64,000 nucleotides of DNA from assembly GCF_003790525.1 (NCBI RefSeq), contig NZ_CP033635.1. One strand, 5' to 3'. The DNA comes from Escherichia coli. Lineage in GTDB: Bacteria > Pseudomonadota > Gammaproteobacteria > Enterobacterales > Enterobacteriaceae. Both the position numbers and the translations under genes were made by a program. Numbering within the stretch: the first letter of the stretch is position 1; every line of letters begins with the position of its first letter. Below the pieces are notes generated by a model. The model ran no database searches. It was not told the DNA's origin and saw nothing but the letters and a program-made list of their open reading frames with translations. Below, piece after piece: positions 8,577 through 35,686 of the stretch.

Positions 8577-8814
8577 GTCTGACTTCTCCTTCCTGTGCCC
8601 TTTTCTGTCGCTGCGTCATCACCTCATGCAGTACGGCGGAGGCATCGCTGATAACGGCGGAGGACTCACGCAGCGCCCGGCTGTATTCGCCCAGCTGCTG
8701 CTCTGCGGCGTCACGTGCCTCACCGGCACGCCCCAGCCGGTATGACTGCCACATGGCCGCCGCCGTCAGGGTGGTCACCATGAGGGCAACAATCACGGCG
8801 TAAACCGGTCTCAT
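8407..8814 (-). CDS. i-spanin (Rz/LysB-like)
   Basis: N-terminal TM segment (AVIVALMVTTLTAAAMW) followed by charged helical region; immediately downstream of endolysin; overlaps the o-spanin gene. Confidence 0.65.
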   Translation of the reverse strand: MRPVYAVIVALMVTTLTAAAMWQSYRLGRAGEARDAAEQQLGEYSRALRESSAVISDASAVLHEVMTQRQKRAQEGEVRREQLREIAATDECAGTLPDHRFTDRLREHTERATARALLPVHSGGTDDGNTAPALP

Positions 8815-18365: not shown

Positions 18366-18793
18366 TGTTGTTTCCTCCCGTTCTGTGCTGGTCTGGCGAA
18401 TGAATTGCGTTGTGGTGAAAAGACCATTCGCGCCAGCGCGGCCTTGTGATTGACTGTGTTCAGTGTTCTGGCCAGTCCGCCGTTGTGCCTGCGTGTCCGC
18501 TCTTCGTGATATCTCTGCATGATTTTCCCGGCAGGCGTGCACGGCTCCGGTTCCTCCGGCGAACGGCGCGGACGAATGACGACAGTCCAGCTATGGCTCT
18601 CGCTGCCCGGCCGCCTGTTGAGTATGTCGGCGATGGTGGTCTCCGTGGTGCGATCGGGGCTGACTATCGTGATTTCCAGCTCGTCGCCCGGTTGTGGCCT
18701 TGTGGCAGGCCTGAACAGTGTCAGCACCGGCATACGCTGGCGCATGATGGCCTCAAACTGTGGGCGCTGCATGGTGCAGCAAAATCGCGTCAT
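18362..18793 (-). CDS. hypothetical protein (143 aa), Arg/Pro-rich
   Basis: ORF with start immediately after the gene A stop; GC-rich with alternative frames also open, so coding status is uncertain. Confidence 0.4.
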   Translation of the reverse strand: MTRFCCTMQRPQFEAIMRQRMPVLTLFRPATRPQPGDELEITIVSPDRTTETTIADILNRRPGSESHSWTVVIRPRRSPEEPEPCTPAGKIMQRYHEERTRRHNGGLARTLNTVNHKAALARMVFSPQRNSFARPAQNGRKQQ

Positions 18794-21300
18794 GCTCCCG
18801 CCTCCACTGGCTGCTCTGTGATGATGTGACGGGCTGACTCATCCCAGTACGCTGTTCCCCCGTTATCCAGACGCACACGGGCACCGTTACGCACGGAGAT
18901 GATGGCCGCGTCAGGCAACTGCACACCCAGCGCATCAAGTTCGCGGGCGATTTGCGTGTCCGTCGCGGTATCCGCAGGCACGACAATCCCCACCCTTACA
19001 GGGGTGTCAGATGCCGGTGTGGTGTCGTTTTGTCCGGTTTTTGCGCCCGACGGCTGATTTTTAATCTGATTACGCAGTTTTCTCCGATCGCCCCTGCTTA
19101 ACGTATTCAGCCAGCTTTCCAGGTTCTCTTCGGGAAGCGTCAGTCGTCCGGGGTCCTGCCTGTTTTCTGGTCCGTGATTGTCTGTTTTTTCATCCCGGGG
19201 ACAGTTATTGCCACGAGTCCAAGGGGCGACGGGGTCGCCCTGAAGGTCAAAACCCTCGCCCGTGCGGTTGTCTGGTATTGTTTCTTTTTTAACCAGTTTC
19301 CACTCGTCCGGATGGGTGCATATGGTGTACCGCTCTCCGAGCGACGGGGCGCAGATTCCGTAGATACGTTGAGGGAATTCACCGTAGTCGTTGGCTTCGT
19401 CTGCGGTTTCGTATGCGGTGCGGACCAGATACTGGTTGCGCGGAATGAGCACACCACCCTGTTTCATGATGTAGGTGGCAAAACATCCCACATCTGCGGC
19501 AGCCATAATGGCGTCAATATCGTCATGATCGAGGTGCTTCGGTGATGCCGGGTTGCGCTCCATCTGGCTTGCAAGGCGGCGGAGTTCACGCCATACCTGG
19601 CGGGGCGGAATGCCGAAAAACTGGAACTGACGGATGCGGTGAAGGCTTGCCCAGGCAATGGCGTTCTCCACGGTTTCCGCCATGGTTTTCCCGGATTCCT
19701 CATCAACGTAAGGTTTTCCGGTTTTCGGATCATTGTTGTGGAAAGCGCTGGCGTCCAGGTTCTTACCGATATAGGTTGCGATATAGCTTGCCGGTGTGCC
19801 TTTTTCCGGGTCTATCTTCTCGCATTTAAAGCGCGGTGAAATATCGTCCCCCAGTTCGTGGCGATCTGATTTAATTGCTGCTTCGCGCATAATTTCGATG
19901 ATGCGCTCTGCGTTCTCCGGGGAAGTGAATACCAGCATATGCCAGTGTGGCGTGCCGTCATGGTGTGGCTCAGCGGTTCGCACGCCGTACCAGCCCAGCC
20001 CCTCTTTTTTTATTTTTTTTCTTACGGCTGCGAAGAAGTCGTAAACCAGATAATCACTGGCATCTCGTACTGTGGCACCGTTGTATTTCGGGTTCAGGCT
20101 GCCGTTCTCGTTCACGCTGTGAAAGCGGGAAGGGGTGGTTACTGTGATGAAGAATGCGACGTCAGCCCGTAATTCGGCCACCATCTCCATCCCTCTGACG
20201 CAGACCATCATTTCATTGCGGCGGTTGCGTGGATTACCCAGGCCAGCCCAGTACACGTCCTCCAGACTCAGGCGCTCGCCGTCTTCGTTTTCAATATCCC
20301 AGCTTTTGAGAAAGTCACAGGTGCGCTGGCGCTTCTCGCGGAACTCCAGTAGTGACTCATGGCTGATATAGGGGGATTGTTTACGTGACACTCTGCCGGC
20401 GGCGCGCAGTAACTCCTCCCGCCAGAGATCGGCGACGTGGCGTAACTGGTTGTTCCACCAGGTCGCGCAGGTGATGCGCAGTACCGCACCCGGAACCCGT
20501 TCAGGGTCCGGCGGTGTGCGTCGGTTGTGCCTGATTTCGAGTTCCGGCCAGTATGGCGGGACCATGCCCAGAATTAAGGCTGTGCGTGCCACCTTCTGGT
20601 AGGCCAGCAGCCAGATAACCGGGCTGTCATTATCCTTGCCTGTCCGTTCAAGAACTTCATCACATATGCGTTCAAATTCTGCGGCGAATGCCTGGGCTGT
20701 CAGTGTGGCGATGCGCTGGATTTCGTCACGGGTGAGTTGCGGCAGTGTGAGCAGTTCTTCAAGGCGATGGCGCACGACGGTGGTTTTGAATGCCGGCGTT
20801 GCAAAGCGGTCGTTAACCCTTTCAATACGTTTCAGGCGCGCACGCAGTCCACGGCGAACGAAATTATCGGCCACGTATGCGCTGTTGTTTTTTACACCTT
20901 CACTGCGGGCACTTTGCTGTTTCCGGTTCAGTCGTGCCAGATCACGGATCAACACACTGGCAAGAAACGAGGGCAGGGTGCGAAGTTCGGCTATCGCCTC
21001 CGATACCGCCGTTGGCGGATTTTCGCGTCTGTGTCGTGCCAGCTTATCCAGCCTTATCTGCCGCTCTTCGTCCCGGTGAAGGTGTGAATTAATTTGCTTA
21101 CCTTTGTCCGTGGTTGTCAGGAAGGCCACGGTTTCTTCATCCAGCCGGGCCTCAGTGCGAATGTCTTCGGTGAGGTAGTCACGGATTGCCCGTTGTAATG
21201 CGGTTGGCTTCTGCGGTAATGCTCTGCCGAATGTCTCAGGATCAATAACCGGCAGCGGGGCGTTCCACGGGTACGCCAGGTGCGTGTGGTGATGGCTCAT
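18790..21300 (-). CDS. phage replication initiation endonuclease (P2 gpA-like, rolling-circle)
   Basis: 836-aa ORF; contains a GTPHWHMLVF HUH-type motif; position in the early operon as for P2 A. Confidence 0.8.
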   Translation of the reverse strand: MSHHHTHLAYPWNAPLPVIDPETFGRALPQKPTALQRAIRDYLTEDIRTEARLDEETVAFLTTTDKGKQINSHLHRDEERQIRLDKLARHRRENPPTAVSEAIAELRTLPSFLASVLIRDLARLNRKQQSARSEGVKNNSAYVADNFVRRGLRARLKRIERVNDRFATPAFKTTVVRHRLEELLTLPQLTRDEIQRIATLTAQAFAAEFERICDEVLERTGKDNDSPVIWLLAYQKVARTALILGMVPPYWPELEIRHNRRTPPDPERVPGAVLRITCATWWNNQLRHVADLWREELLRAAGRVSRKQSPYISHESLLEFREKRQRTCDFLKSWDIENEDGERLSLEDVYWAGLGNPRNRRNEMMVCVRGMEMVAELRADVAFFITVTTPSRFHSVNENGSLNPKYNGATVRDASDYLVYDFFAAVRKKIKKEGLGWYGVRTAEPHHDGTPHWHMLVFTSPENAERIIEIMREAAIKSDRHELGDDISPRFKCEKIDPEKGTPASYIATYIGKNLDASAFHNNDPKTGKPYVDEESGKTMAETVENAIAWASLHRIRQFQFFGIPPRQVWRELRRLASQMERNPASPKHLDHDDIDAIMAAADVGCFATYIMKQGGVLIPRNQYLVRTAYETADEANDYGEFPQRIYGICAPSLGERYTICTHPDEWKLVKKETIPDNRTGEGFDLQGDPVAPWTRGNNCPRDEKTDNHGPENRQDPGRLTLPEENLESWLNTLSRGDRRKLRNQIKNQPSGAKTGQNDTTPASDTPVRVGIVVPADTATDTQIARELDALGVQLPDAAIISVRNGARVRLDNGGTAYWDESARHIITEQPVEAGA

Positions 21301-21305
21301 TCCGC

Positions 21306-21719
21306 TTACTCCCCTGCTGTTGCCTTCTGAAATGCAGCCCGGTACAGCACAAGAAGGCGCTGGTATTCAGCGATAAAGTCTTCTGCTGTTTTAATCCCTT
21401 TCACGACCACGCTGTGGGTGGTCATTTCCAGAACGAGCACCATTTCTGACGATGACCAGCTGATAACGCTGCTGTCGCACCCGTTGATGTGGAACAGGCC
21501 CAGCTCCAGGCTGTGGTTCTGGTCTCTGACATCCACGCGGTAACGGTCGTCAACGGTGAAGGAAAAATCCCCGTATGTGGCAGCGCTGCGGGCTGCCTGT
21601 TTACAGGCGCGGCGGTAATAGTCGTGCAGGTCATTGAGACGGGAAGCGAGGCGTGGATCCACCGCCCACATCCAGTTAAAAAAATCCTGAATATCTGAAA
21701 GTCCCTTAACGCTCTTCAT
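21306..21719 (-). CDS. hypothetical protein (137 aa)
   Basis: ORF immediately upstream of gene A on the same strand. Confidence 0.5.
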   Translation of the reverse strand: MKSVKGLSDIQDFFNWMWAVDPRLASRLNDLHDYYRRACKQAARSAATYGDFSFTVDDRYRVDVRDQNHSLELGLFHINGCDSSVISWSSSEMVLVLEMTTHSVVVKGIKTAEDFIAEYQRLLVLYRAAFQKATAGE

Positions 21720-21787
21720 GAGAACCTCCGGAAACGGACGTGCGGAAGCCTCCCGCGTACGGGGGCGGGATGGCTCCGGGATGTTGA

Positions 21788-22012
21788 TTAGTGGTGGTGC
21801 TGGTTAATGAGGTCCTGCAGCTCGCGCAGGTCATCCACCAGGTAGCTGAATACAGCGGCGGAATACATGTTTGACAGTGCGTGGCTGCGCTCATGCAGCA
21901 TATTGATGTGCATGATATGCGCGACGCGGAATGCGCGGAAAAGTCTGCGGTTGATTTCAGTCTGGATGTGACGACGCGCAGCGTATGCGCGCTGTTGTTT
22001 GCGGTTTGCCAT
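21788..22012 (-). CDS. hypothetical small basic protein (74 aa) with C-terminal His run
   Basis: ORF downstream of the iteron-like non-coding region. Confidence 0.45.
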   Translation of the reverse strand: MANRKQQRAYAARRHIQTEINRRLFRAFRVAHIMHINMLHERSHALSNMYSAAVFSYLVDDLRELQDLINQHHH

Positions 22013-22332
22013 GGTGTGGCCTCTGTAGTTGCAAGTTTTGAAAACTCACCATCCAGAGGTTGCAATTCTGGGTGGCGAGACGTACAGGGTTGCAACCACC
22101 GGCAACTACAGAAACCGGCCCGACCGAAGTCGGCCCCATACGCCCCGCCATAATTCTGGCGCGAAAAAGACGTGGCGATACGGTACGCACAAAAAAACCG
22201 CTGGCGCGGTTGTGCGCTGTAGTTGTCAGCGGGGGTTGCAATCCCGGCACCCGTTTTATGAGGTGCAGCGGAAATGTAACCTGACTGATTGCGGCATGGC
22301 AAGCGGTTTTTTTGTGTGTGCATAGTGGTTAC
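22013..22332. repeat. non-coding region with iteron-like CTGTAGTTG / GGTTGCAA repeats
   Basis: GGTTGCAA-type motif at about 22027, 22059, 22089, 22235; CTGTAGTTG at about 22023 and 22218, with its reverse complement at about 22103; all read directly. Confidence 0.6.
22191..22211 (-). terminator. rho-independent terminator inside the iteron region
   Basis: Minus strand reads AACCGC-GCCA-GCGGTT followed by T7. Confidence 0.5.
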
Positions 22333-22971
22333 TCAGTCCGGTAGCAGTTCGCAAAGCACGGTGTCAGCGGCGGTATATCGTGCGTAAAGCCGGGCGAGGA
22401 CCCATCTTTTAAGGGATATCCCGGCCGTGTCCCGGATGTACTTTCTGATTTCGCTGAATGTCATCCCCTGTTCATCGCGCAGTTCAGTTACCAACTCCAC
22501 CAGGTGATCGCTGTATCTGGCTCTGTGGTGGAGTTCCCCGTATTTCCTGAACCGGTACCCTCTTTTTCTCAGGTTCAGTCCCACCGTGGATGTCGAGCGC
22601 CCCAGTTCATTCGCGAGTTCCCGGATGGTTTTTGTGTGGCGATTCCTGATGAGCGTGTTGAGTTCTTTTGTATTCAGGGGGGGTTGTTTGGTGTGGATAA
22701 CCCCCTGAGAGAGCAAAAGACGGATGCGGCTTCGTATTGCTGGCCCGGTTCTCTGAAAGTGTTTTGTCAGTTCTGGTACGGTGTGGGAGGGGTATAAACC
22801 GACCAGTAGAGCATCTTCCTGTTGTGTCCAGGCTCTGACATGCTTCGGTGGTACACCTGATACACCCATAGGTTTAAGTGCGGGCATAGTTGTTCTCCGT
22901 TGTTCTGTTTTGTGTCGGGGTAATGGTCCGGTTTTTTCGCCTTCAACCGGAAAAGAAGGGCGTGTTAGCAT
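22333..22971 (-). CDS. putative DNA-binding protein with repeated helix-turn-helix / Myb-SANT-like motifs; start uncertain
   Basis: WTQQEDALLVGLYPSHTVPELTKHFQRTGPAIRSRIRLL and two further HTH-like segments; several in-frame Met candidates. Confidence 0.5.
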   Translation of the reverse strand: MLTRPSFPVEGEKTGPLPRHKTEQRRTTMPALKPMGVSGVPPKHVRAWTQQEDALLVGLYPSHTVPELTKHFQRTGPAIRSRIRLLLSQGVIHTKQPPLNTKELNTLIRNRHTKTIRELANELGRSTSTVGLNLRKRGYRFRKYGELHHRARYSDHLVELVTELRDEQGMTFSEIRKYIRDTAGISLKRWVLARLYARYTAADTVLCELLPD

Positions 22972-23121
22972 TGATGAATCCGCCGTTCAGTGGATCTGGC
23001 GGACACTTTGTTCAACACGCCCGGGGGTAAAGATGTCTGGCTGCAAAAATTCCACGAGCCAGGTTACCCTGCACTCTGCGCTGATTAGGGGCAGAGCGAT
23101 GACGATGAGGGATAAAACACC

Positions 23122-23604
23122 ATGCAAAACAACCAACGTAAAAAATCGAGAGAACGGGATGAGGTCATGTTCCGTCTCTGGTACAGCTACTGGCTGGAGC
23201 GCATCGCGGCGGTATTCAATCGTCGCCTTGATGCGATCATCAACATTTTGATCCTTGCGGCGGGTGCGTTCATCGTAGCCGGCTGGCATTTCGGCTGGGT
23301 GCTTGGGGCAGTGGTGGTGGTTCTCGGAGCCTGTAATTTCATATGTCGTTTCGGGCAACGTGCGCAGGCGGCGAGTGAGCATGCCCATCGCTACAATGAG
23401 TTGATTACCAAAAGCGCCCTCCTCAGTACGGAAGCTCTGCTGGCACGCCTTCCAGAGCTTGAGATGCATGACTCTCCTGTCCTGGAATGCATGGAAAATG
23501 TGGCGTACAACAAAGCCTGTATGTCTCTGAATATCAGTCATCGTGAATCTCTCTCTTTCGCTGAAAAGATGATGGCTGCCATTACGATCGGTTTTTCCCG
23601 ATAA
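23122..23604 (+). CDS. predicted 2-TM inner-membrane protein (160 aa), opposite strand to the surrounding early operon
   Basis: GAGGG about 11 bp upstream of ATG; basic N-terminus, two adjacent hydrophobic helices (ILILAAGAFIVAGW and WVLGAVVVVLGACNFI), helical C-terminus; preferred over the overlapping His/Arg-rich antisense ORF. Confidence 0.55.
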   Translation: MQNNQRKKSRERDEVMFRLWYSYWLERIAAVFNRRLDAIINILILAAGAFIVAGWHFGWVLGAVVVVLGACNFICRFGQRAQAASEHAHRYNELITKSALLSTEALLARLPELEMHDSPVLECMENVAYNKACMSLNISHRESLSFAEKMMAAITIGFSR

Positions 23605-23643
23605 GTGCCCTGCGTGTGTCATCTGACGCTCGCCATGTTCCCG

Positions 23644-23892
23644 TCAGTCGTTCGGGTTTATGACGTAATCCACGACGTTTTCCACGCGGCGGCGTAATTC
23701 CCTGTGTATCTGGCCTGGTGTTGCTGGTTCGCCCGGTTGCCCCAGGCCTGCCACAAAATCGTCGATTTCACTCATAAGCAGGTTGCGCATTACGGCGATA
23801 TGGTGACGCGCCTCTTTGCCTGGTCTGCGTGCGTTGGTATCGTGTTTGCTGCTCATGTTCTTACCTCGCTTATTATCTCGAGTTCGCGCCAT
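23644..23892 (-). CDS. hypothetical small basic protein; start possibly at 23856
   Basis: ORF in early operon; an internal ATG overlaps the upstream stop. Confidence 0.4.
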   Translation of the reverse strand: MARTRDNKRGKNMSSKHDTNARRPGKEARHHIAVMRNLLMSEIDDFVAGLGQPGEPATPGQIHRELRRRVENVVDYVINPND

Positions 23893-24062
23893 GACTCTGT
23901 CAGGACGGTTATCTGTGACCCGTCCGTCAGGTGGACGTAAATCAGTTCGTCACCTGCCGGGCATCGGGTGGTGGTGGCGATGACACTGCTTTCCACTTCG
24001 TATTCCATCCCGGATGTATCGGTAAAAAGCGTTTTATTGCGTCTTCTCAGAATTGCAGTCAT
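23853..24062 (-). CDS. hypothetical protein (69 aa)
   Basis: ORF in early operon. Confidence 0.4.
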   Translation of the reverse strand: MTAILRRRNKTLFTDTSGMEYEVESSVIATTTRCPAGDELIYVHLTDGSQITVLTESWRELEIISEVRT

Positions 24063-24072
24063 GGTGTGGCCC

Positions 24073-24366
24073 TCAGTGTATTCGTGATGACGTGCCAGCC
24101 TCAGTGCTCTGAAGCTGACGTCTGAGGTTTTTCAGCTCCTGAGCCAGCCTGATGTTTTCTTCCCGGAACTCAGAAAGCGCCTGCACGGCAAGGGCGATGG
24201 CTATCGCTTCTGTCTGGTGCATCATGGCTAATAATATTTCTTCCGGATGTTCCATTAATTCACGGCTTAGTTTGTTTTTTTTCTTAATTAATTTGTTTGT
24301 GCCTTCGATTATTTTGTTGACCTGTTCACTGTTATCAATGATTCGGTTTTTTTTATTATTAAGCAT
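24073..24366 (-). CDS. hypothetical protein (97 aa), Lys-rich N-terminus, predicted coiled coil
   Basis: AT-rich ORF; heptad-like helical sequence. Confidence 0.45.
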   Translation of the reverse strand: MLNNKKNRIIDNSEQVNKIIEGTNKLIKKKNKLSRELMEHPEEILLAMMHQTEAIAIALAVQALSEFREENIRLAQELKNLRRQLQSTEAGTSSRIH

Positions 24367-24446
24367 TCCTGATTTCTCCTTTTTGAGCGGGTCAACCCCT
24401 CCGCGTGAGCGGATGTTTCTGGTTGTTTCTGGTGTTAAACGCCTGT

Positions 24447-24572
24447 TTATTTACGGCGCTTATCGCCAGTAAATAACGATTCAATGGTGTTAATGCTGTT
24501 AATTACCCGCATAATCCCCACAGCGCAAATAATGGCAAGGATAAGAATTAACCATGACATAAATACGCTCAT
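24447..24572 (-). CDS. unlisted small hydrophobic peptide (41 aa, MSVFMSWLILILAIICAVGIMRVINSINTIESLFTGDKRRK)
   Basis: My own reverse-complement translation; ATG overlaps the TGA of the upstream 80-aa gene in an ATGA arrangement; single predicted TM helix. Confidence 0.3.
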   Translation of the reverse strand: MSVFMSWLILILAIICAVGIMRVINSINTIESLFTGDKRRK

Positions 24573-26280: not shown

Positions 26281-26622
26281 ATGAGTATCTTGTCAATAGA
26301 CTATGCGAAAAAGTTGCGTTTGATACGCAAGACGGAAGGGCTAACTCAAAAGCAATTTGCTGATATTACAGGGTTATCTCTGGCAACTGTCAGGAATTAT
26401 GAGTCAGGGCAAAAGATCGCCAGAGCAAAGATTGTTGAGGCCGTCCTTCAAGTGGATCGGTTTGAAAAATATATGTTCTGGCTAATCAAAGATAAGACGC
26501 TACCTGTTGCCGGTCAGATCGCCCCGGCTCTCTCTCTTGATGGCTCCACGCAGTCGGAGGACGATCAGGTTTCAACCCGCAATACCCAAAAATCACCCCA
26601 ATCAGGCCGCAATGCTGGCTGA
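26281..26622 (+). CDS. phage immunity repressor, P2 C-type (XRE-family HTH)
   Basis: HTH LTQKQFADITGLSLATVRNYESGQ; C-terminal GQIAPAL segment resembling P2 C as I recall it; upstream of and co-oriented with integrase. Confidence 0.75.
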   Translation: MSILSIDYAKKLRLIRKTEGLTQKQFADITGLSLATVRNYESGQKIARAKIVEAVLQVDRFEKYMFWLIKDKTLPVAGQIAPALSLDGSTQSEDDQVSTRNTQKSPQSGRNAG

Positions 26623-34046: not shown

Positions 34047-34255
34047 ATGAATTAACGCAGAGTGTGAACTTACTGTTTCACACTCTGTTTTTTTGTTTCT
34101 TCTATCTGACTTGCTTTTTTCAAAATTTTATTCGTTTCAAAATAAAATGTGCAGCAGGTTATAATTTTGCATTTCGCTATTTCCGCACTTCTTATTTGCC
34201 GCGCATAATCCCTCGTTTTACAGATGCCCCTTTACTTTTGGCGAAGGATTTGTCT

Positions 34256-35686
34256 ATGGCTGGGAATGTTCAGGAAAAACAGCTGCGATGGTACAACATT
34301 GCGCTGATGTCTTTTATCACTGTCTGGGGTTTTGGCAACGTTGTTAATAACTACGCCAACCAGGGGCTGGTGGTTGTTTTTTCATGGGTGTTTATCTTTG
34401 CGCTCTATTTCACACCTTATGCGCTAATTGTTGGTCAGTTAGGCTCGACCTTCAAAGATGGGAAGGGCGGGGTCAGTACCTGGATTAAACACACGATGGG
34501 ACCCGGACTGGCTTACCTCGCCGCGTGGACCTACTGGGTAGTGCATATTCCCTATCTGGCACAAAAACCCCAGGCAATACTGATTGCGCTCGGTTGGGCG
34601 ATGAAAGGCGACGGTTCGTTAATCAAAGAATATTCAGTCGTAGCGTTACAGGGGTTAACGCTGGTGCTGTTTATCTTCTTTATGTGGGTTGCTTCACGCG
34701 GTATGAAATCGCTGAAAATCGTCGGTTCTGTGGCAGGGATTGCGATGTTTGTTATGTCGCTCCTGTATGTGGCGATGGCGGTAACCGCGCCTGCGATTAC
34801 TGAAGTGCATATTGCGACCACAAACATTACCTGGGAAACGTTCATTCCTCATATCGACTTTACCTACATCACCACTATTTCAATGCTGGTTTTCGCGGTT
34901 GGCGGAGCAGAGAAGATTTCTCCTTACGTTAATCAAACGCGCAACCCAGGAAAAGAATTTCCAAAAGGGATGTTATGCCTGGCGGTGATGGTTGCGGTTT
35001 GTGCCATTCTGGGCTCGCTGGCGATGGGGATGATGTTTGATTCGCGTAATATCCCGGATGACTTAATGACTAACGGTCAGTATTACGCCTTTCAGAAACT
35101 GGGCGAGTATTACAACATGGGTAATACTTTAATGGTGATTTACGCCATTGCGAATACCCTGGGACAAGTAGCTGCGCTGGTATTCTCGATTGATGCGCCG
35201 CTTAAAGTACTATTAGGCGATGCTGATAGCAAATATATTCCAGCCAGTTTATGTCGTACCAACGCTTCTGGTACGCCCGTTAATGGCTATTTTCTGACCC
35301 TGGTGCTGGTGGCGATCCTGATTATGCTGCCGACGCTGGGTATCGGCGATATGAATAATCTCTACAAGTGGTTGCTGAATCTTAACTCGGTGGTGATGCC
35401 ACTACGTTATCTGTGGGTATTTGTTGCATTTATTGCAGTCGTTCGTCTGGCGCAGAAATATAAACCAGAGTATGTCTTTATTCGTAACAGGCCGCTGGCG
35501 ATGACTGTCGGGATCTGGTGTTTTACCTTTACCGCTTTTGCCTGCCTGACAGGGATCTTCCCGAAAATGGAAGCCTTCACTGCAGAGTGGACCTTCCAGT
35601 TAGCGCTGAATGTTGCAACGCCGTTTGTCCTGGTTGGACTGGGGCTGATATTCCCGCTGCTGGCGCGTAAAGCGAATAGTAAATAA
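34256..35686 (+). CDS. ycaM: APC-family amino acid transporter YcaM
   Basis: ORF 34064-35686; start placed at MAGNVQEKQL (476 aa). Confidence 0.85.
   Translation: MAGNVQEKQLRWYNIALMSFITVWGFGNVVNNYANQGLVVVFSWVFIFALYFTPYALIVGQLGSTFKDGKGGVSTWIKHTMGPGLAYLAAWTYWVVHIPYLAQKPQAILIALGWAMKGDGSLIKEYSVVALQGLTLVLFIFFMWVASRGMKSLKIVGSVAGIAMFVMSLLYVAMAVTAPAITEVHIATTNITWETFIPHIDFTYITTISMLVFAVGGAEKISPYVNQTRNPGKEFPKGMLCLAVMVAVCAILGSLAMGMMFDSRNIPDDLMTNGQYYAFQKLGEYYNMGNTLMVIYAIANTLGQVAALVFSIDAPLKVLLGDADSKYIPASLCRTNASGTPVNGYFLTLVLVAILIMLPTLGIGDMNNLYKWLLNLNSVVMPLRYLWVFVAFIAVVRLAQKYKPEYVFIRNRPLAMTVGIWCFTFTAFACLTGIFPKMEAFTAEWTFQLALNVATPFVLVGLGLIFPLLARKANSK

What the first reader, a model, noticed from the sequence alone, without database searches (positions are those of the whole stretch)
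22013..22332. 320-bp non-coding region with iteron-like CTGTAGTTG / GGTTGCAA repeats, an internal terminator and a UUCG hairpin
Between two early genes lies an unusually long gap. It contains at least four GGTTGCAA-type motifs and three CTGTAGTTG elements (one inverted), a rho-independent terminator on the transcribed strand (about 22191-22211), and a C(UUCG)G tetraloop hairpin (about 22121-22139). Such repeat arrays are typical of replication or partition protein binding sites, or of operator arrays. The adjacent multi-HTH protein (22333-22971) is a candidate binder. A structured non-coding RNA is also possible.
Basis: seen in the sequence. Interest (0 to 1): 0.5.

Follow-up and report, generated by a model that had tools for sequence, protein, structure and literature searches.

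The report
Phage antisense-RNA immunity module (IsrK + C4)
The 320-base gap is not a set of protein-binding iterons: it holds two known phage small-RNA genes (IsrK and a C4/CI-type antisense RNA), and the "repeats" are the antisense RNA's recognition loops and their matching target sites, a known switch that here sits in a P2-like prophage.

Summary
The main interpretation (iterons or operators bound by the neighbouring HTH protein) is not supported.

On the minus strand the gap holds, in order:
- a sigma-70-like promoter;
- IsrK (Rfam RF01394, 22266..22191);
- a C4 antisense RNA (RF01695, 22155..22068);
- the ribosome-binding site of a 74-aa homologue of the P4 epsilon derepression protein.

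CTGTAGTTG and GGTTGCAA are the a' loop and b' segment of the C4 RNA. Their complements are a1/b1 inside IsrK and a2/b2 just downstream, with a2 at the Shine-Dalgarno sequence.

In 14 diverse phage loci, and in all 80 IMG/VR loci that encode the epsilon-like protein, the three copies change together. There are at least 16 a'/b' combinations, and variation concentrates in exactly these six elements.

P4 (seqA-CI) and Gifsy-1 (IsrK-STnc1160) give the same Rfam pair. Published compensatory mutations in Gifsy-1 map onto b1 and b'.

The module is a P1 immI / P4 / N15 immA-type RNA immunity switch in a P88-like (P2-like) prophage. It is a new member of a known kind and of modest interest.

The parts
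22303..22321 (-). Left edge of the conserved module. It holds an A7 tract plus CCGC just upstream of the -35 hexamer. This could be an UP-like element, or an antiterminator strand for transcripts that read in from upstream.
   Evidence: Sequence conservation among 51 distinct P88-like modules begins here, while the DNA further upstream differs. It is 90% complementary over 21 nt to the 3' half of the IsrK terminator plus its U tract (I1). The long-range helix is predicted in the MFE fold.
22273..22302 (-). Predicted sigma-70 promoter of IsrK: -35 TTGCCA (22302..22297), 18-nt spacer, -10 TACATT (22278..22273). The inferred transcription start is at 22266.
   Evidence: This is the only promoter-like site in 21600-23200. 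A -35/-10 pair sits at the same distance from the IsrK 5' end in all 14 loci compared.
22191..22266 (-). IsrK-type leader RNA, equivalent to the c4 a1/b1 element and to P4 seqA. It has two hairpins followed by an intrinsic terminator (stem 22211..22196, T run 22197..22191).
   Evidence: Rfam RF01394 gives 60.1 bits against a gathering score of 50, full length. The MFE fold reproduces the structure. The terminator scan finds the terminator.
22234..22241 (-). b1 target (UUGCAACC), in the loop of IsrK hairpin 2.
   Evidence: It is exactly complementary to b'. It sits at the same position in 14 of 14 loci and co-varies with b'.
22217..22225 (-). a1 target (CAACUACAG), between IsrK hairpin 2 and the terminator.
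   Evidence: It is exactly complementary to the a' loop.
22068..22155 (-). C4/CI-type antisense RNA. It has a 17-bp outer stem, an inner UUCG hairpin (22133..22120), and a second hairpin that displays a'. The 3' tail is CCCAG.
   Evidence: Rfam RF01695 gives 80.1 bits against a gathering score of 45, full length. MFE is -45.8 kcal/mol, z -3.8. On 15 sequences, 100% of cells are paired and 14 of 27 pairs carry double changes.
22103..22114 (-). a' recognition loop (UUUCUGUAGUUG).
   Evidence: It is unpaired in both the Rfam and the MFE structures. It is complementary to a1 and a2.
22088..22097 (-). b' recognition segment (GGUUGCAACC, a 10-nt palindrome) in the junction between hairpin 2 and the outer stem.
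22058..22065 (-). b2 target (UUGCAACC), starting 3 nt after the C4 3' end.
22020..22032 (-). a2 target (GCAACUACAGA, 22032..22022). It overlaps the 5' edge of the Shine-Dalgarno GAGG (22023..22020), which lies 7 nt before the ATG at 22012.
   Evidence: Perfect 11-nt inverted repeat with the a' region (I6). The equivalent site overlaps the Shine-Dalgarno sequence of the first downstream gene in the other loci.
21788..22012 (-). Controlled gene: a 74-aa homologue of the P4 epsilon derepression protein, a putative antirepressor of the P2 C-like repressor.
   Evidence: Pfam PF25738 Derepression, E 9.8e-6. BLASTP against P4 epsilon gives 29% identity over 66 aa, E 2e-7. It belongs to phrog_3688. 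RefSeq names it 'derepression protein'.
18790..21719 (-). Downstream genes with no intervening terminator: a 137-aa ORF (21719..21306) and the 836-aa P2 gpA-type replication endonuclease (21300..18790). They are probably subject to polarity from the module.
   Evidence: phrog_3237 and phrog_91. No minus-strand terminator is predicted between 22012 and 21600. The gpA N-terminus follows the module in 73 of 80 related loci.

Best explanation
The gap encodes an RNA-based secondary immunity switch of the P1 immI (c4) / P4 (seqA-CI-seqC) / N15 immA / Gifsy-1 (IsrK-STnc1160) type. It is built into the early operon of a P88-like (P2-like) prophage.

**Proposed mechanism**
1. A weak constitutive promoter starts transcription at about 22266.
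2. Most transcripts stop at the intrinsic terminator and give the ~76-nt IsrK RNA, which carries the sites a1 and b1.
3. Read-through transcripts contain an ~88-nt tRNA-like C4/CI-type RNA. It is probably released by RNase P, and it displays two single-stranded recognition sequences, a' (CUGUAGUUG) and b' (GGUUGCAACC).
4. This RNA pairs with b2 and a2 immediately downstream. That occludes the ribosome-binding site of the 74-aa epsilon-like derepression (antirepressor) gene. By polarity, expression of the following genes, including replication gene A, would also fall.
5. The C4 RNA can also pair with a1/b1 in the leader. Depending on the relative amounts, this either reinforces termination (the P4/N15 model) or lets the short IsrK RNA act as a decoy that titrates the C4 RNA and switches translation on (the Gifsy-1 model).
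6. The hypervariable a/b sequences set immunity specificity between related phages.

**Inferred:** RNase P processing, the direction of regulation in this phage, that the 74-aa protein inactivates the P2 C-like repressor, and polarity on gene A.
For: - **Rfam hits.** Both are full length and above gathering score on the minus strand: C4 at 80.1 bits (gathering 45) and isrK at 60.1 bits (gathering 50).
- **Folds.** The MFE folds reproduce both structures, with a', b' and b1 unpaired.
- **C4 structure.** On 15 homologues, 100% of cells are paired, 14 of 27 pairs carry changes on both sides, and 0 of 500 shuffles reach this.
- **Conserved tandem.** IsrK followed by C4 after 23-35 nt is present in 13 other phages of unrelated types, in P4 itself and in Gifsy-1. 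Rfam holds a family named 'a1, b1 targets of C4 antisense RNA' (RF03163) that overlaps IsrK in those loci.
- **Co-variation of b.** The b' core is exactly complementary to b1 and b2 at fixed positions in 14 of 14 loci. There are 10 different cores and 0 of 174 non-cognate matches.
- **Duplex energy.** Summed duplex energy averages -48 kcal/mol for cognate pairs and -23 for non-cognate pairs. No non-cognate target scores better for 13 of 14 C4 RNAs; the one exception is a pair of loci with identical a'/b'.
- **Close relatives.** All 80 IMG/VR loci that encode the epsilon-like protein carry the module. At least 16 a'/b' combinations occur and the targets match almost throughout: b1/b2 always, and a1/a2 in 13 of the 16 (only 4-6 nt in the other three).
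- **Where the variation lies.** Among 51 distinct P88-like modules, high-entropy columns lie in the six elements in 30 of 59 columns, against 22 of 256 elsewhere (P = 2e-12).
- **Promoter.** It sits at a conserved distance from the IsrK 5' end in all 14 loci.
- **Experimental support in a homologue.** In Gifsy-1, G28A/C162U and G31A/C159U are compensatory for structure and repression, and IsrK supplied in trans activates translation more than 100-fold (PMC4825925). I map these positions to the b1 loop and to b'.
- **Published parallel.** The same paper equates IsrK with P4 seqA and STnc1160 with CI RNA.
- **Controlled gene and repressor.** The downstream gene belongs to the P4 epsilon family. 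The prophage repressor is a P2 C homologue (35% identity, E 2e-24), and in my recollection P2 C is the known target of P4 epsilon.
Against: - No expression data exist for this locus. The promoter, the processing and the stable RNA species are all predicted.
- a2 overlaps only the first two bases of GAGG, so occlusion of the ribosome-binding site is inferred from the ribosome footprint, not from full masking of the Shine-Dalgarno sequence.
- Homology of the 74-aa protein to P4 epsilon is weak (29% identity), and its target is untested.
- No LexA box or other induction signal lies near the promoter, so how the switch is flipped is unknown.
- The two published models for such modules (the processed RNA as repressor, versus the short leader RNA as trans-activator) make different predictions, and sequence alone cannot separate them.
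- The palindromic b' could let C4 RNAs dimerise, with unknown effect.
Confidence: 0.85

Rival explanations
1. The repeats are DNA sites (iterons, partition sites or operators) bound by the adjacent 212-aa multi-HTH protein or by gene A protein.
For: - The motifs cluster in a non-coding gap next to a DNA-binding protein gene and upstream of the replication gene.
- The 212-aa protein matches phrog_323, a transcriptional regulator family.
Against: - The motifs are parts of two Rfam RNAs and their targets.
- One copy of each motif is in reverse-complement orientation inside an RNA loop or junction, and the copies co-vary as complements.
- They are the most variable columns among relatives that share the same flanking genes.
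- A homologue of the 212-aa protein is present upstream in only 17 of 76 loci, and P88 has a different gene there.
- The module occurs in phages with other replication systems (lambda O/P-like, N15, P4 alpha).
- In P2 the origin lies inside gene A (annotation).
Confidence: 0.04
2. The parts are the same, but the logic is purely that of the Gifsy-1 model. The long transcript is locked in an inactive fold by cis pairing of a1/b1 with a'/b'. The short IsrK RNA is the only trans-acting regulator, an activator. No processed C4 RNA acts as a repressor on a2/b2.
For: - The MFE fold of the full transcript pairs the IsrK a1/b1 region with the C4 a'/b' region in cis, like 'structure A' of PMC4825925.
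- In Gifsy-1, IsrK supplied in trans activates anrP translation more than 100-fold.
Against: - a2/b2 are conserved in position and co-vary with a'/b' in all loci. That is unexplained if only a1/b1 mattered.
- The 'orf45' frame that the Gifsy-1 model needs for translational coupling varies from 8 to 261 codons and is not conserved.
- The C4 fold is strongly supported by covariation as an independent structure.
- A stable processed species (STnc1160) exists in Salmonella.
- Small processed repressor RNAs are cited for P1/P7, P4 and N15.
Confidence: 0.1
3. The module is an inert relic, or IsrK acts mainly on host mRNAs as an Hfq-dependent sRNA, with no role in controlling the downstream phage genes.
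For: - Rfam names IsrK an 'Hfq binding RNA'.
- No expression data are available here.
- RefSeq leaves the gap unannotated.
Against: - All six recognition elements are intact and perfectly matched.
- Relatives show coordinated replacement of all three copies against an otherwise almost invariant backbone. That requires continuing selection on the pairing.
- The module is found in 80 of 80 epsilon-like loci.
Confidence: 0.03

Closest known systems
Gifsy-1 isrK locus of Salmonella (IsrK - orf45/STnc1160 - anrP; Hershko-Shalev et al. 2016, PMC4825925)
   Same: - It gives the same Rfam pair in the same order and at similar spacing: IsrK, then C4 after 25 nt in Gifsy-1 and after 35 nt here.
- b1 lies in the loop of IsrK hairpin 2 and is complementary to b'. 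a2 overlaps the Shine-Dalgarno sequence of the downstream antirepressor-type gene.
- Promoter and terminator are arranged the same way.
   Different: - The host phage is lambdoid, and the downstream gene is a different antirepressor family (AnrP) that feeds into an antiterminator, AntQ.
- The 45-codon frame used for translational coupling there is a 64-codon frame here that ends inside the 74-aa gene.
- The a and b sequences differ.
Satellite phage P4 immunity region (seqA - CI RNA/seqB - seqC), followed by epsilon and alpha
   Same: - P4's own region scores as IsrK (60.8 bits), as c4-a1b1 and as C4 (74.9 bits).
- The controlled operon likewise contains a Derepression-family protein (epsilon), followed by the replication gene.
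- Control of P4 by the CI RNA pairing with seqA and seqC is described.
   Different: - In P4 the gap between the leader and the CI RNA is 107 nt, against 35 nt here. Epsilon lies about 245 nt further downstream, behind other ORFs, rather than directly at a2.
- The replication protein is a primase-helicase (alpha), not a gpA nickase.
- The 137-aa ORF here is unrelated to P4 orf151.
- P4 has no protein repressor, whereas this prophage also has a P2 C/Cox switch.
P1/P7 immI operon (c4 RNA - icd - ant), Rfam RF01695 and RF03163
   Same: - Same RNA family and same a'/b' with a1/b1 and a2/b2 logic.
- The target lies around the ribosome-binding site of the first downstream gene, and the module controls an antirepressor.
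- Specificity differences give heteroimmunity (for the published description; for the family matches).
   Different: - P1 and P7 were not fetched or compared directly here.
- In P1 the first controlled gene is icd and the antirepressor is Ant. Here it is a small epsilon-like protein followed by replication genes.
N15 secondary immunity region immA (a small processed RNA controlling antA-icd-antB; Ravin, Svarchevsky and Deho 1999, cited in PMC4488713)
   Same: - The N15 locus gives IsrK, then C4 after 25 nt, with matching a and b sites.
- The record annotates the terminator that corresponds to the IsrK terminator.
   Different: - The host is a linear plasmid-prophage with different downstream genes.
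- The primary paper was not available to read.

Membership tests
Rfam RF01695 C4 antisense RNA (clan CL00128) | Full-length match to the covariance model at or above the gathering score | tested here: met
   80.1 bits against a gathering score of 45, model positions 1-87 of 87, E 2.8e-15.
Rfam RF01695 C4 antisense RNA (clan CL00128) | Long outer stem enclosing two hairpins, supported by compensatory changes | tested here: met
   The MFE fold is identical to the Rfam structure. On 15 sequences all 405 cells are paired, 14 of 27 pairs carry double changes, and slid controls pair in only 34-47% of cells.
Rfam RF01695 C4 antisense RNA (clan CL00128) | Two unpaired recognition sequences (a', b') complementary to an upstream (a1/b1) and a downstream (a2/b2) target set, the latter at the ribosome-binding site | tested here: met
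   Exact complements of 8-11 nt lie at 22241..22234, 22225..22217, 22065..22058 and 22032..22022, and a2 overlaps GAGG. The sites co-vary in 14 of 14 loci and across 16 types.
Rfam RF01695 C4 antisense RNA (clan CL00128) | Processed out of a longer transcript (by RNase P) into a stable ~77-90-nt RNA | not testable with these tools
   Only suggestive: a tRNA-acceptor-like stem is followed by CCCA. No expression data are available.
Rfam RF01695 C4 antisense RNA (clan CL00128) | Controls an antirepressor operon | tested here: inconclusive
   The downstream gene is a weak member of the P4 epsilon Derepression family. Antirepressor genes are annotated downstream of the module in several other loci. 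Function was not tested.
Rfam RF01394 isrK / RF03163 c4-a1b1 | Match at or above the gathering score | tested here: met
   isrK scores 60.1 bits against a gathering score of 50, full length. c4-a1b1 was not reported for the window at E <= 1, although it overlaps IsrK in P4, Gifsy-1 and five other loci.
Rfam RF01394 isrK / RF03163 c4-a1b1 | Own promoter and an intrinsic terminator that bound a ~76-nt RNA directly upstream of the C4-type RNA | tested here: met
   Predicted promoter at 22302..22273 and terminator at 22211..22191. Placement is conserved in 14 loci. These are predictions only.
Rfam RF01394 isrK / RF03163 c4-a1b1 | Hfq binding and trans-activation of the downstream cistron | not testable with these tools
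   Shown only for Gifsy-1.
   The repeats are the hypervariable columns. The 212-aa protein is present in 17 of 76 loci, against 80 of 80 for the repeats.
   This needs EMSA or footprinting.

The most novel reading that the evidence does not exclude
P88-like P2-family prophages have relatives of this gap in about 22% of complete E. coli genomes. They may carry a complete P4-type cassette (seqA/IsrK - CI/C4 - seqC - epsilon) as their own second immunity layer. That layer would gate an epsilon-like antirepressor of the P2 C-type repressor and the replication gene A.

If so, three things follow:
- The derepression and immunity module of satellite P4 shares ancestry with a module native to helper-type phages.
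- The module explains why these P2-like phages are inducible while P2, which lacks it, is not.
- The freely re-assorting a and b determinants (at least 16 combinations) form a two-key combinatorial heteroimmunity code.

A further untested twist is that the A7CCGC element upstream of the promoter acts as an antiterminator only for transcripts that arrive from the lytic early promoter.
Probability: 0.4. Interest if true: 0.5.

Novelty: new member of a known kind. Interest (0 to 1): 0.3.

Why it matters
The result replaces a plausible but wrong reading (iterons) with a specific, testable RNA mechanism.

It also shows that a widespread group of E. coli prophages carries an unannotated RNA immunity switch. 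RefSeq lists nothing, or an 'ash family protein' CDS, at this position.

The locus ties together systems that a recent review still treats separately: IsrK of Gifsy-1 and c4 of P1/P7. It links them as well to P4 CI/seqA and N15 immA. It places a homologue of the P4 epsilon antirepressor under this control inside a helper-type phage.

The many natural a/b specificity variants on an otherwise invariant backbone are a ready-made resource. They could be used to study RNA-RNA recognition and heteroimmunity, or to build orthogonal antisense regulators.

Tried and rejected
- **LexA or SOS control.** No CTG-N10-CAG site with a good match lies near 21000-23200.
- **NCBIfam.** It gave nothing for the 74-, 137-, 212- or 836-aa proteins.
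- **P4 orf151.** The 137-aa ORF is not related to it.
- **A conserved 'orf45'.** The frame that starts at the conserved AUG at the C4 5' end is 8-261 codons long across loci, so there is no evidence for a conserved peptide.
- **Pfam Phage_ASH.** It matches the frame that reads through the RNAs only weakly (E 0.065).
- **Antiterminator idea.** The A7CCGC element and the terminator are invariant in 51 distinct modules, so there is no covariation to test. The single upstream variant (L044) is uncompensated.
- **24B_1 of phage phi24B.** I considered it as a possible fragment of this module. It maps to a different locus, between lom and vb_24B_43, so I dropped it.
- **Literature.** The N15 papers (Mardanov and Ravin 2007; Ravin et al. 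1999) were not held. Searches for P88/Xuanwuvirus together with C4, IsrK or derepression found no paper describing this module in P2-like phages.
- **Not done.** P1 and P7 were not fetched for direct comparison.
Full report
**1. The observation**

The gap 22013-22332 lies between two minus-strand ORFs, 21788..22012 (74 aa) and 22333..22971 (212 aa). CTGTAGTTG occurs three times in the 64-kb window, all inside the gap: 22023 (+), 22217 (+) and 22103 (-). The expectation for the whole window is 0.28, and 0 of 100 shuffles reach three.

GGTTGCAA has four of its seven window matches in the gap: 22058, 22234, and the palindromic 22088/22090. The scan finds a minus-strand intrinsic terminator with stem 22211..22196 and a T run. 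A CCGAC-UUCG-GUCGG hairpin lies at 22133..22120.

**2. What it is**

A scan of 20500-24500 against Rfam gives two full-length hits on the minus strand, both above gathering score and both inside the gap:
- isrK (RF01394) at 22266..22191, 60.1 bits against a gathering score of 50;
- C4 antisense RNA (RF01695) at 22155..22068, 80.1 bits against a gathering score of 45.

The UUCG hairpin is the first inner hairpin of the C4 RNA. Minimum-free-energy folds of each RNA alone reproduce the Rfam structures (IsrK -27 kcal/mol, z -2.7; C4 -45.8 kcal/mol, z -3.8).

The only sigma-70-like site in 21600-23200 is on the minus strand, TTGCCA-18-TACATT at 22302..22273. Its -10 hexamer ends 7 nt before the first base of the IsrK model.

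**3. What the repeats are**

In the C4 RNA, CUGUAGUUG lies in the 12-nt loop of the second hairpin (a', 22114..22103). GGUUGCAACC lies in the single-stranded junction before the 3' strand of the outer stem (b', 22097..22088).

Their exact complements occur twice more on the same transcript:
- in IsrK, b1 (UUGCAACC, 22241..22234) sits in the loop of hairpin 2, and a1 (CAACUACAG, 22225..22217) sits before the terminator;
- just downstream of the C4 RNA, b2 (UUGCAACC, 22065..22058) comes first, followed by a2 (GCAACUACAGA, 22032..22022).

a2 runs into the Shine-Dalgarno GAGG (22023..22020), which lies 7 nt before the ATG of the 74-aa gene. This is the a'/b' - a1/b1 - a2/b2 arrangement of the P1/P7 c4 system. 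Rfam even holds a family called 'a1, b1 targets of C4 antisense RNA' (RF03163, same clan). That family overlaps IsrK in P4, Gifsy-1 and five other loci.

**4. Comparative test**

I fetched 13 loci from phages of different types: P88, Citrobacter phiSM, several Stx phages, Ss-VASD, ST64B, a Yersinia phage, N15, two further coliphages, a Klebsiella phage and the P22-like Tyrion. All carry IsrK and then C4, 23-35 nt later, on the same strand. All have a -35/-10 pair at the same distance from the IsrK 5' end.

The recognition sequences differ between loci, and the three copies change together:
- The b' core is exactly complementary to b1 (IsrK position ~25) and to b2 (starting 3-8 nt after the C4 3' end) in 14 of 14 loci.
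- There are 10 different b cores, and 0 of 174 non-cognate matches.
- Summed duplex energies average -48 kcal/mol for cognate pairs and -23 for non-cognate pairs. No non-cognate target scores better for 13 of 14 C4 RNAs; the exception involves the Klebsiella and Tyrion loci, whose a'/b' sequences are identical.

The C4 secondary structure is itself strongly supported. Across 15 sequences, including P4 CI, all 405 cells are paired and 14 of 27 pairs carry changes on both sides. No shuffle reaches this (0 of 500), and slid controls pair in only 34-47% of cells.

**5. Close relatives**

A peptide-pattern scan of IMG/VR with the 74-aa protein returned 80 loci. Seventy have a recognisable C4 by pattern. 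The other ten have C4 and IsrK by cmscan at the same positions. So 80 of 80 carry the module.

The 70 pattern-matched loci show 16 a'/b' combinations. The a and b types re-assort: for example, a' CUGUAGUUG occurs with three different b', and b' GGUUGCAA occurs with two different a'. The b1 and b2 sites match b' in all 16 types. a1 and a2 match a' over 7-10 nt in 13 of them and only over 4-6 nt in the other three.

Across 51 distinct module sequences the backbone is almost invariant. High-entropy columns concentrate in the six elements, 30 of 59 columns against 22 of 256 elsewhere (odds ratio 11, P = 2e-12). Several of the outside columns are adjacent to the elements or are paired stem positions. 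This is the signature of selection on RNA-RNA specificity, not of conserved protein-binding sites.

**6. Against the iteron/operator reading**

- A homologue of the 212-aa HTH protein sits upstream of the module in only 17 of 76 loci with a full flank. P88 has an SPFH-domain gene there instead.
- The module also sits in phages with unrelated replication systems.
- In P2, the origin nick site is annotated inside gene A.

**7. Genomic context**

The window is E. coli chromosome carrying a P88-like (Xuanwuvirus, Peduoviridae) prophage next to dmsABC. The order on the minus strand is:
- Cox and further early genes;
- the 212-aa HTH protein;
- promoter, IsrK, C4 and the a2/b2 targets;
- the 74-aa protein;
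- the 137-aa protein;
- the 836-aa gpA-type replication endonuclease (phrog_91).

The 74-aa protein matches Pfam Derepression (PF25738, E 9.8e-6). It aligns with P4 epsilon at 29% identity over 66 residues (E 2e-7).

The prophage repressor (26281-26622) is a full-length homologue of P2 C (35% identity, E 2e-24). From my own knowledge, P2 C is the target of P4 epsilon. P2 itself has no Rfam hit between C and A. P88 was obtained by chemical induction and phiSM is spontaneously active.

**8. Relation to characterised systems**

P4's own immunity region scores as IsrK (8692..8615), c4-a1b1 and C4 (8507..8420, the CI RNA). It is followed by epsilon and the replication gene alpha.

In Gifsy-1, IsrK (34316..34240) is followed by a C4 hit (34214..34131). 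I mapped the published mutations onto these elements:
- G28 and G31 lie in the b1 loop (UUGGCGU);
- C159 and C162 lie in b' (ACGCCAA);
- A107 is the AUG of the conserved AAUUAUGG at the C4 5' end.

Hershko-Shalev et al. showed that G28A/C162U and G31A/C159U are compensatory for structure and repression. They also showed that IsrK supplied in trans activates translation of the downstream antirepressor more than 100-fold. They noted that IsrK resembles P4 seqA and that STnc1160 resembles CI RNA. So pairing between b1 and b' has direct experimental support in a homologous locus.

The published 'orf45' frame is not conserved: it ranges from 8 to 261 codons across loci and is 64 codons here.

**9. 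Mechanism**

The parts and their pairing potential are shown. The regulatory logic is inferred from the homologous systems.

- In a lysogen, the weak promoter makes mostly terminated IsrK. Some read-through transcripts yield the processed C4-type RNA.
- That RNA pairs with b2 and a2, blocks initiation at the epsilon-like gene, and by polarity lowers expression of gene A.
- Pairing with a1/b1 either promotes termination or, when IsrK is in excess, titrates the C4 RNA and turns translation on.

The fold of the full transcript predicts cis pairing of a1/b1 with a'/b', as in 'structure A' of the Gifsy-1 paper. No LexA box was found near the promoter, so the trigger is unknown.

**10. Prevalence and annotation**

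Relatives of the 320-nt gap (80% identity or more) occur in 1184 of 5426 complete E. coli genomes. Only 14 records are 99% identical or more. RefSeq annotates nothing there, or an 'ash family protein' CDS. One GenBank record, Stx2 phage F004, does annotate 'isrK Hfq binding RNA' and 'C4 antisense RNA' side by side.

**11. Verdict**

The feature is real and well defined. It belongs to a known class of phage RNA immunity switches and is found by existing Rfam models. The specific setting is a P2-like phage in which the module directly gates an epsilon-like protein and gene A. I found no description of this setting in the searchable literature. I therefore rate it a new member of a known kind, of modest interest.

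Noticed in passing
window 22303-22321 (-) and 22185-22205 (-): The A7CCGC element just upstream of the -35 hexamer is complementary to the 3' half of the IsrK terminator plus its U tract (21 nt, 90%). In a transcript that enters from the upstream gene, the MFE fold replaces the terminator hairpin with this long-range helix (z -5.2). It could be an antiterminator specific to read-in transcripts, or simply an UP-like A tract. Both strands are invariant in 51 relatives, so no covariation test was possible.
   Followed up: partly
window 22088-22097: In this specificity type, b' is a perfect 10-nt palindrome (GGUUGCAACC). C4 RNAs could therefore pair with each other, and b1 could pair with b2. None of the other 9 b cores in the 14-locus comparison showed this.
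   Followed up: no
window 21957-22250 (-); relatives: RefSeq annotates an 'ash family protein' CDS over this RNA module in some relatives. The P4 record still carries a 137-aa 'cI gene product' over the CI RNA. The frame through IsrK and C4 here matches Pfam Phage_ASH only weakly (E 0.065). That protein family may largely be a translation of the RNA genes.
   Followed up: partly
L005 1146-2297, L007 1147-2304, L006 1605-2390: In several phage records the annotated CDS runs straight through the IsrK and C4 hits (WGPS2 gp13, ST64B sb41) or starts at the AUG at the C4 5' end (Ss-VASD). These are probably over-extended gene calls.
   Followed up: no
window 23122-23604 (+): A 160-aa gene in the opposite orientation interrupts the minus-strand early gene block. 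It belongs to phrog_6315 and has a weak, sub-threshold SLATT-domain match (E 0.006). It could be a moron or defence gene.
   Followed up: no
L008 149-447 (-) and L006 2524-2607 (+): Other Rfam RNAs lie next to the module in relatives: ryfA (134.6 bits) in Yersinia phage vB_YpM_39, and sRNA-Xcc1 (79.6 bits) in Shigella phage Ss-VASD.
   Followed up: no
window 21306-21719 (-): The 137-aa ORF between the epsilon-like gene and gene A is present in only 11 of 80 related loci. This slot is a variable cassette, and P88 has a different gene there.
   Followed up: partly
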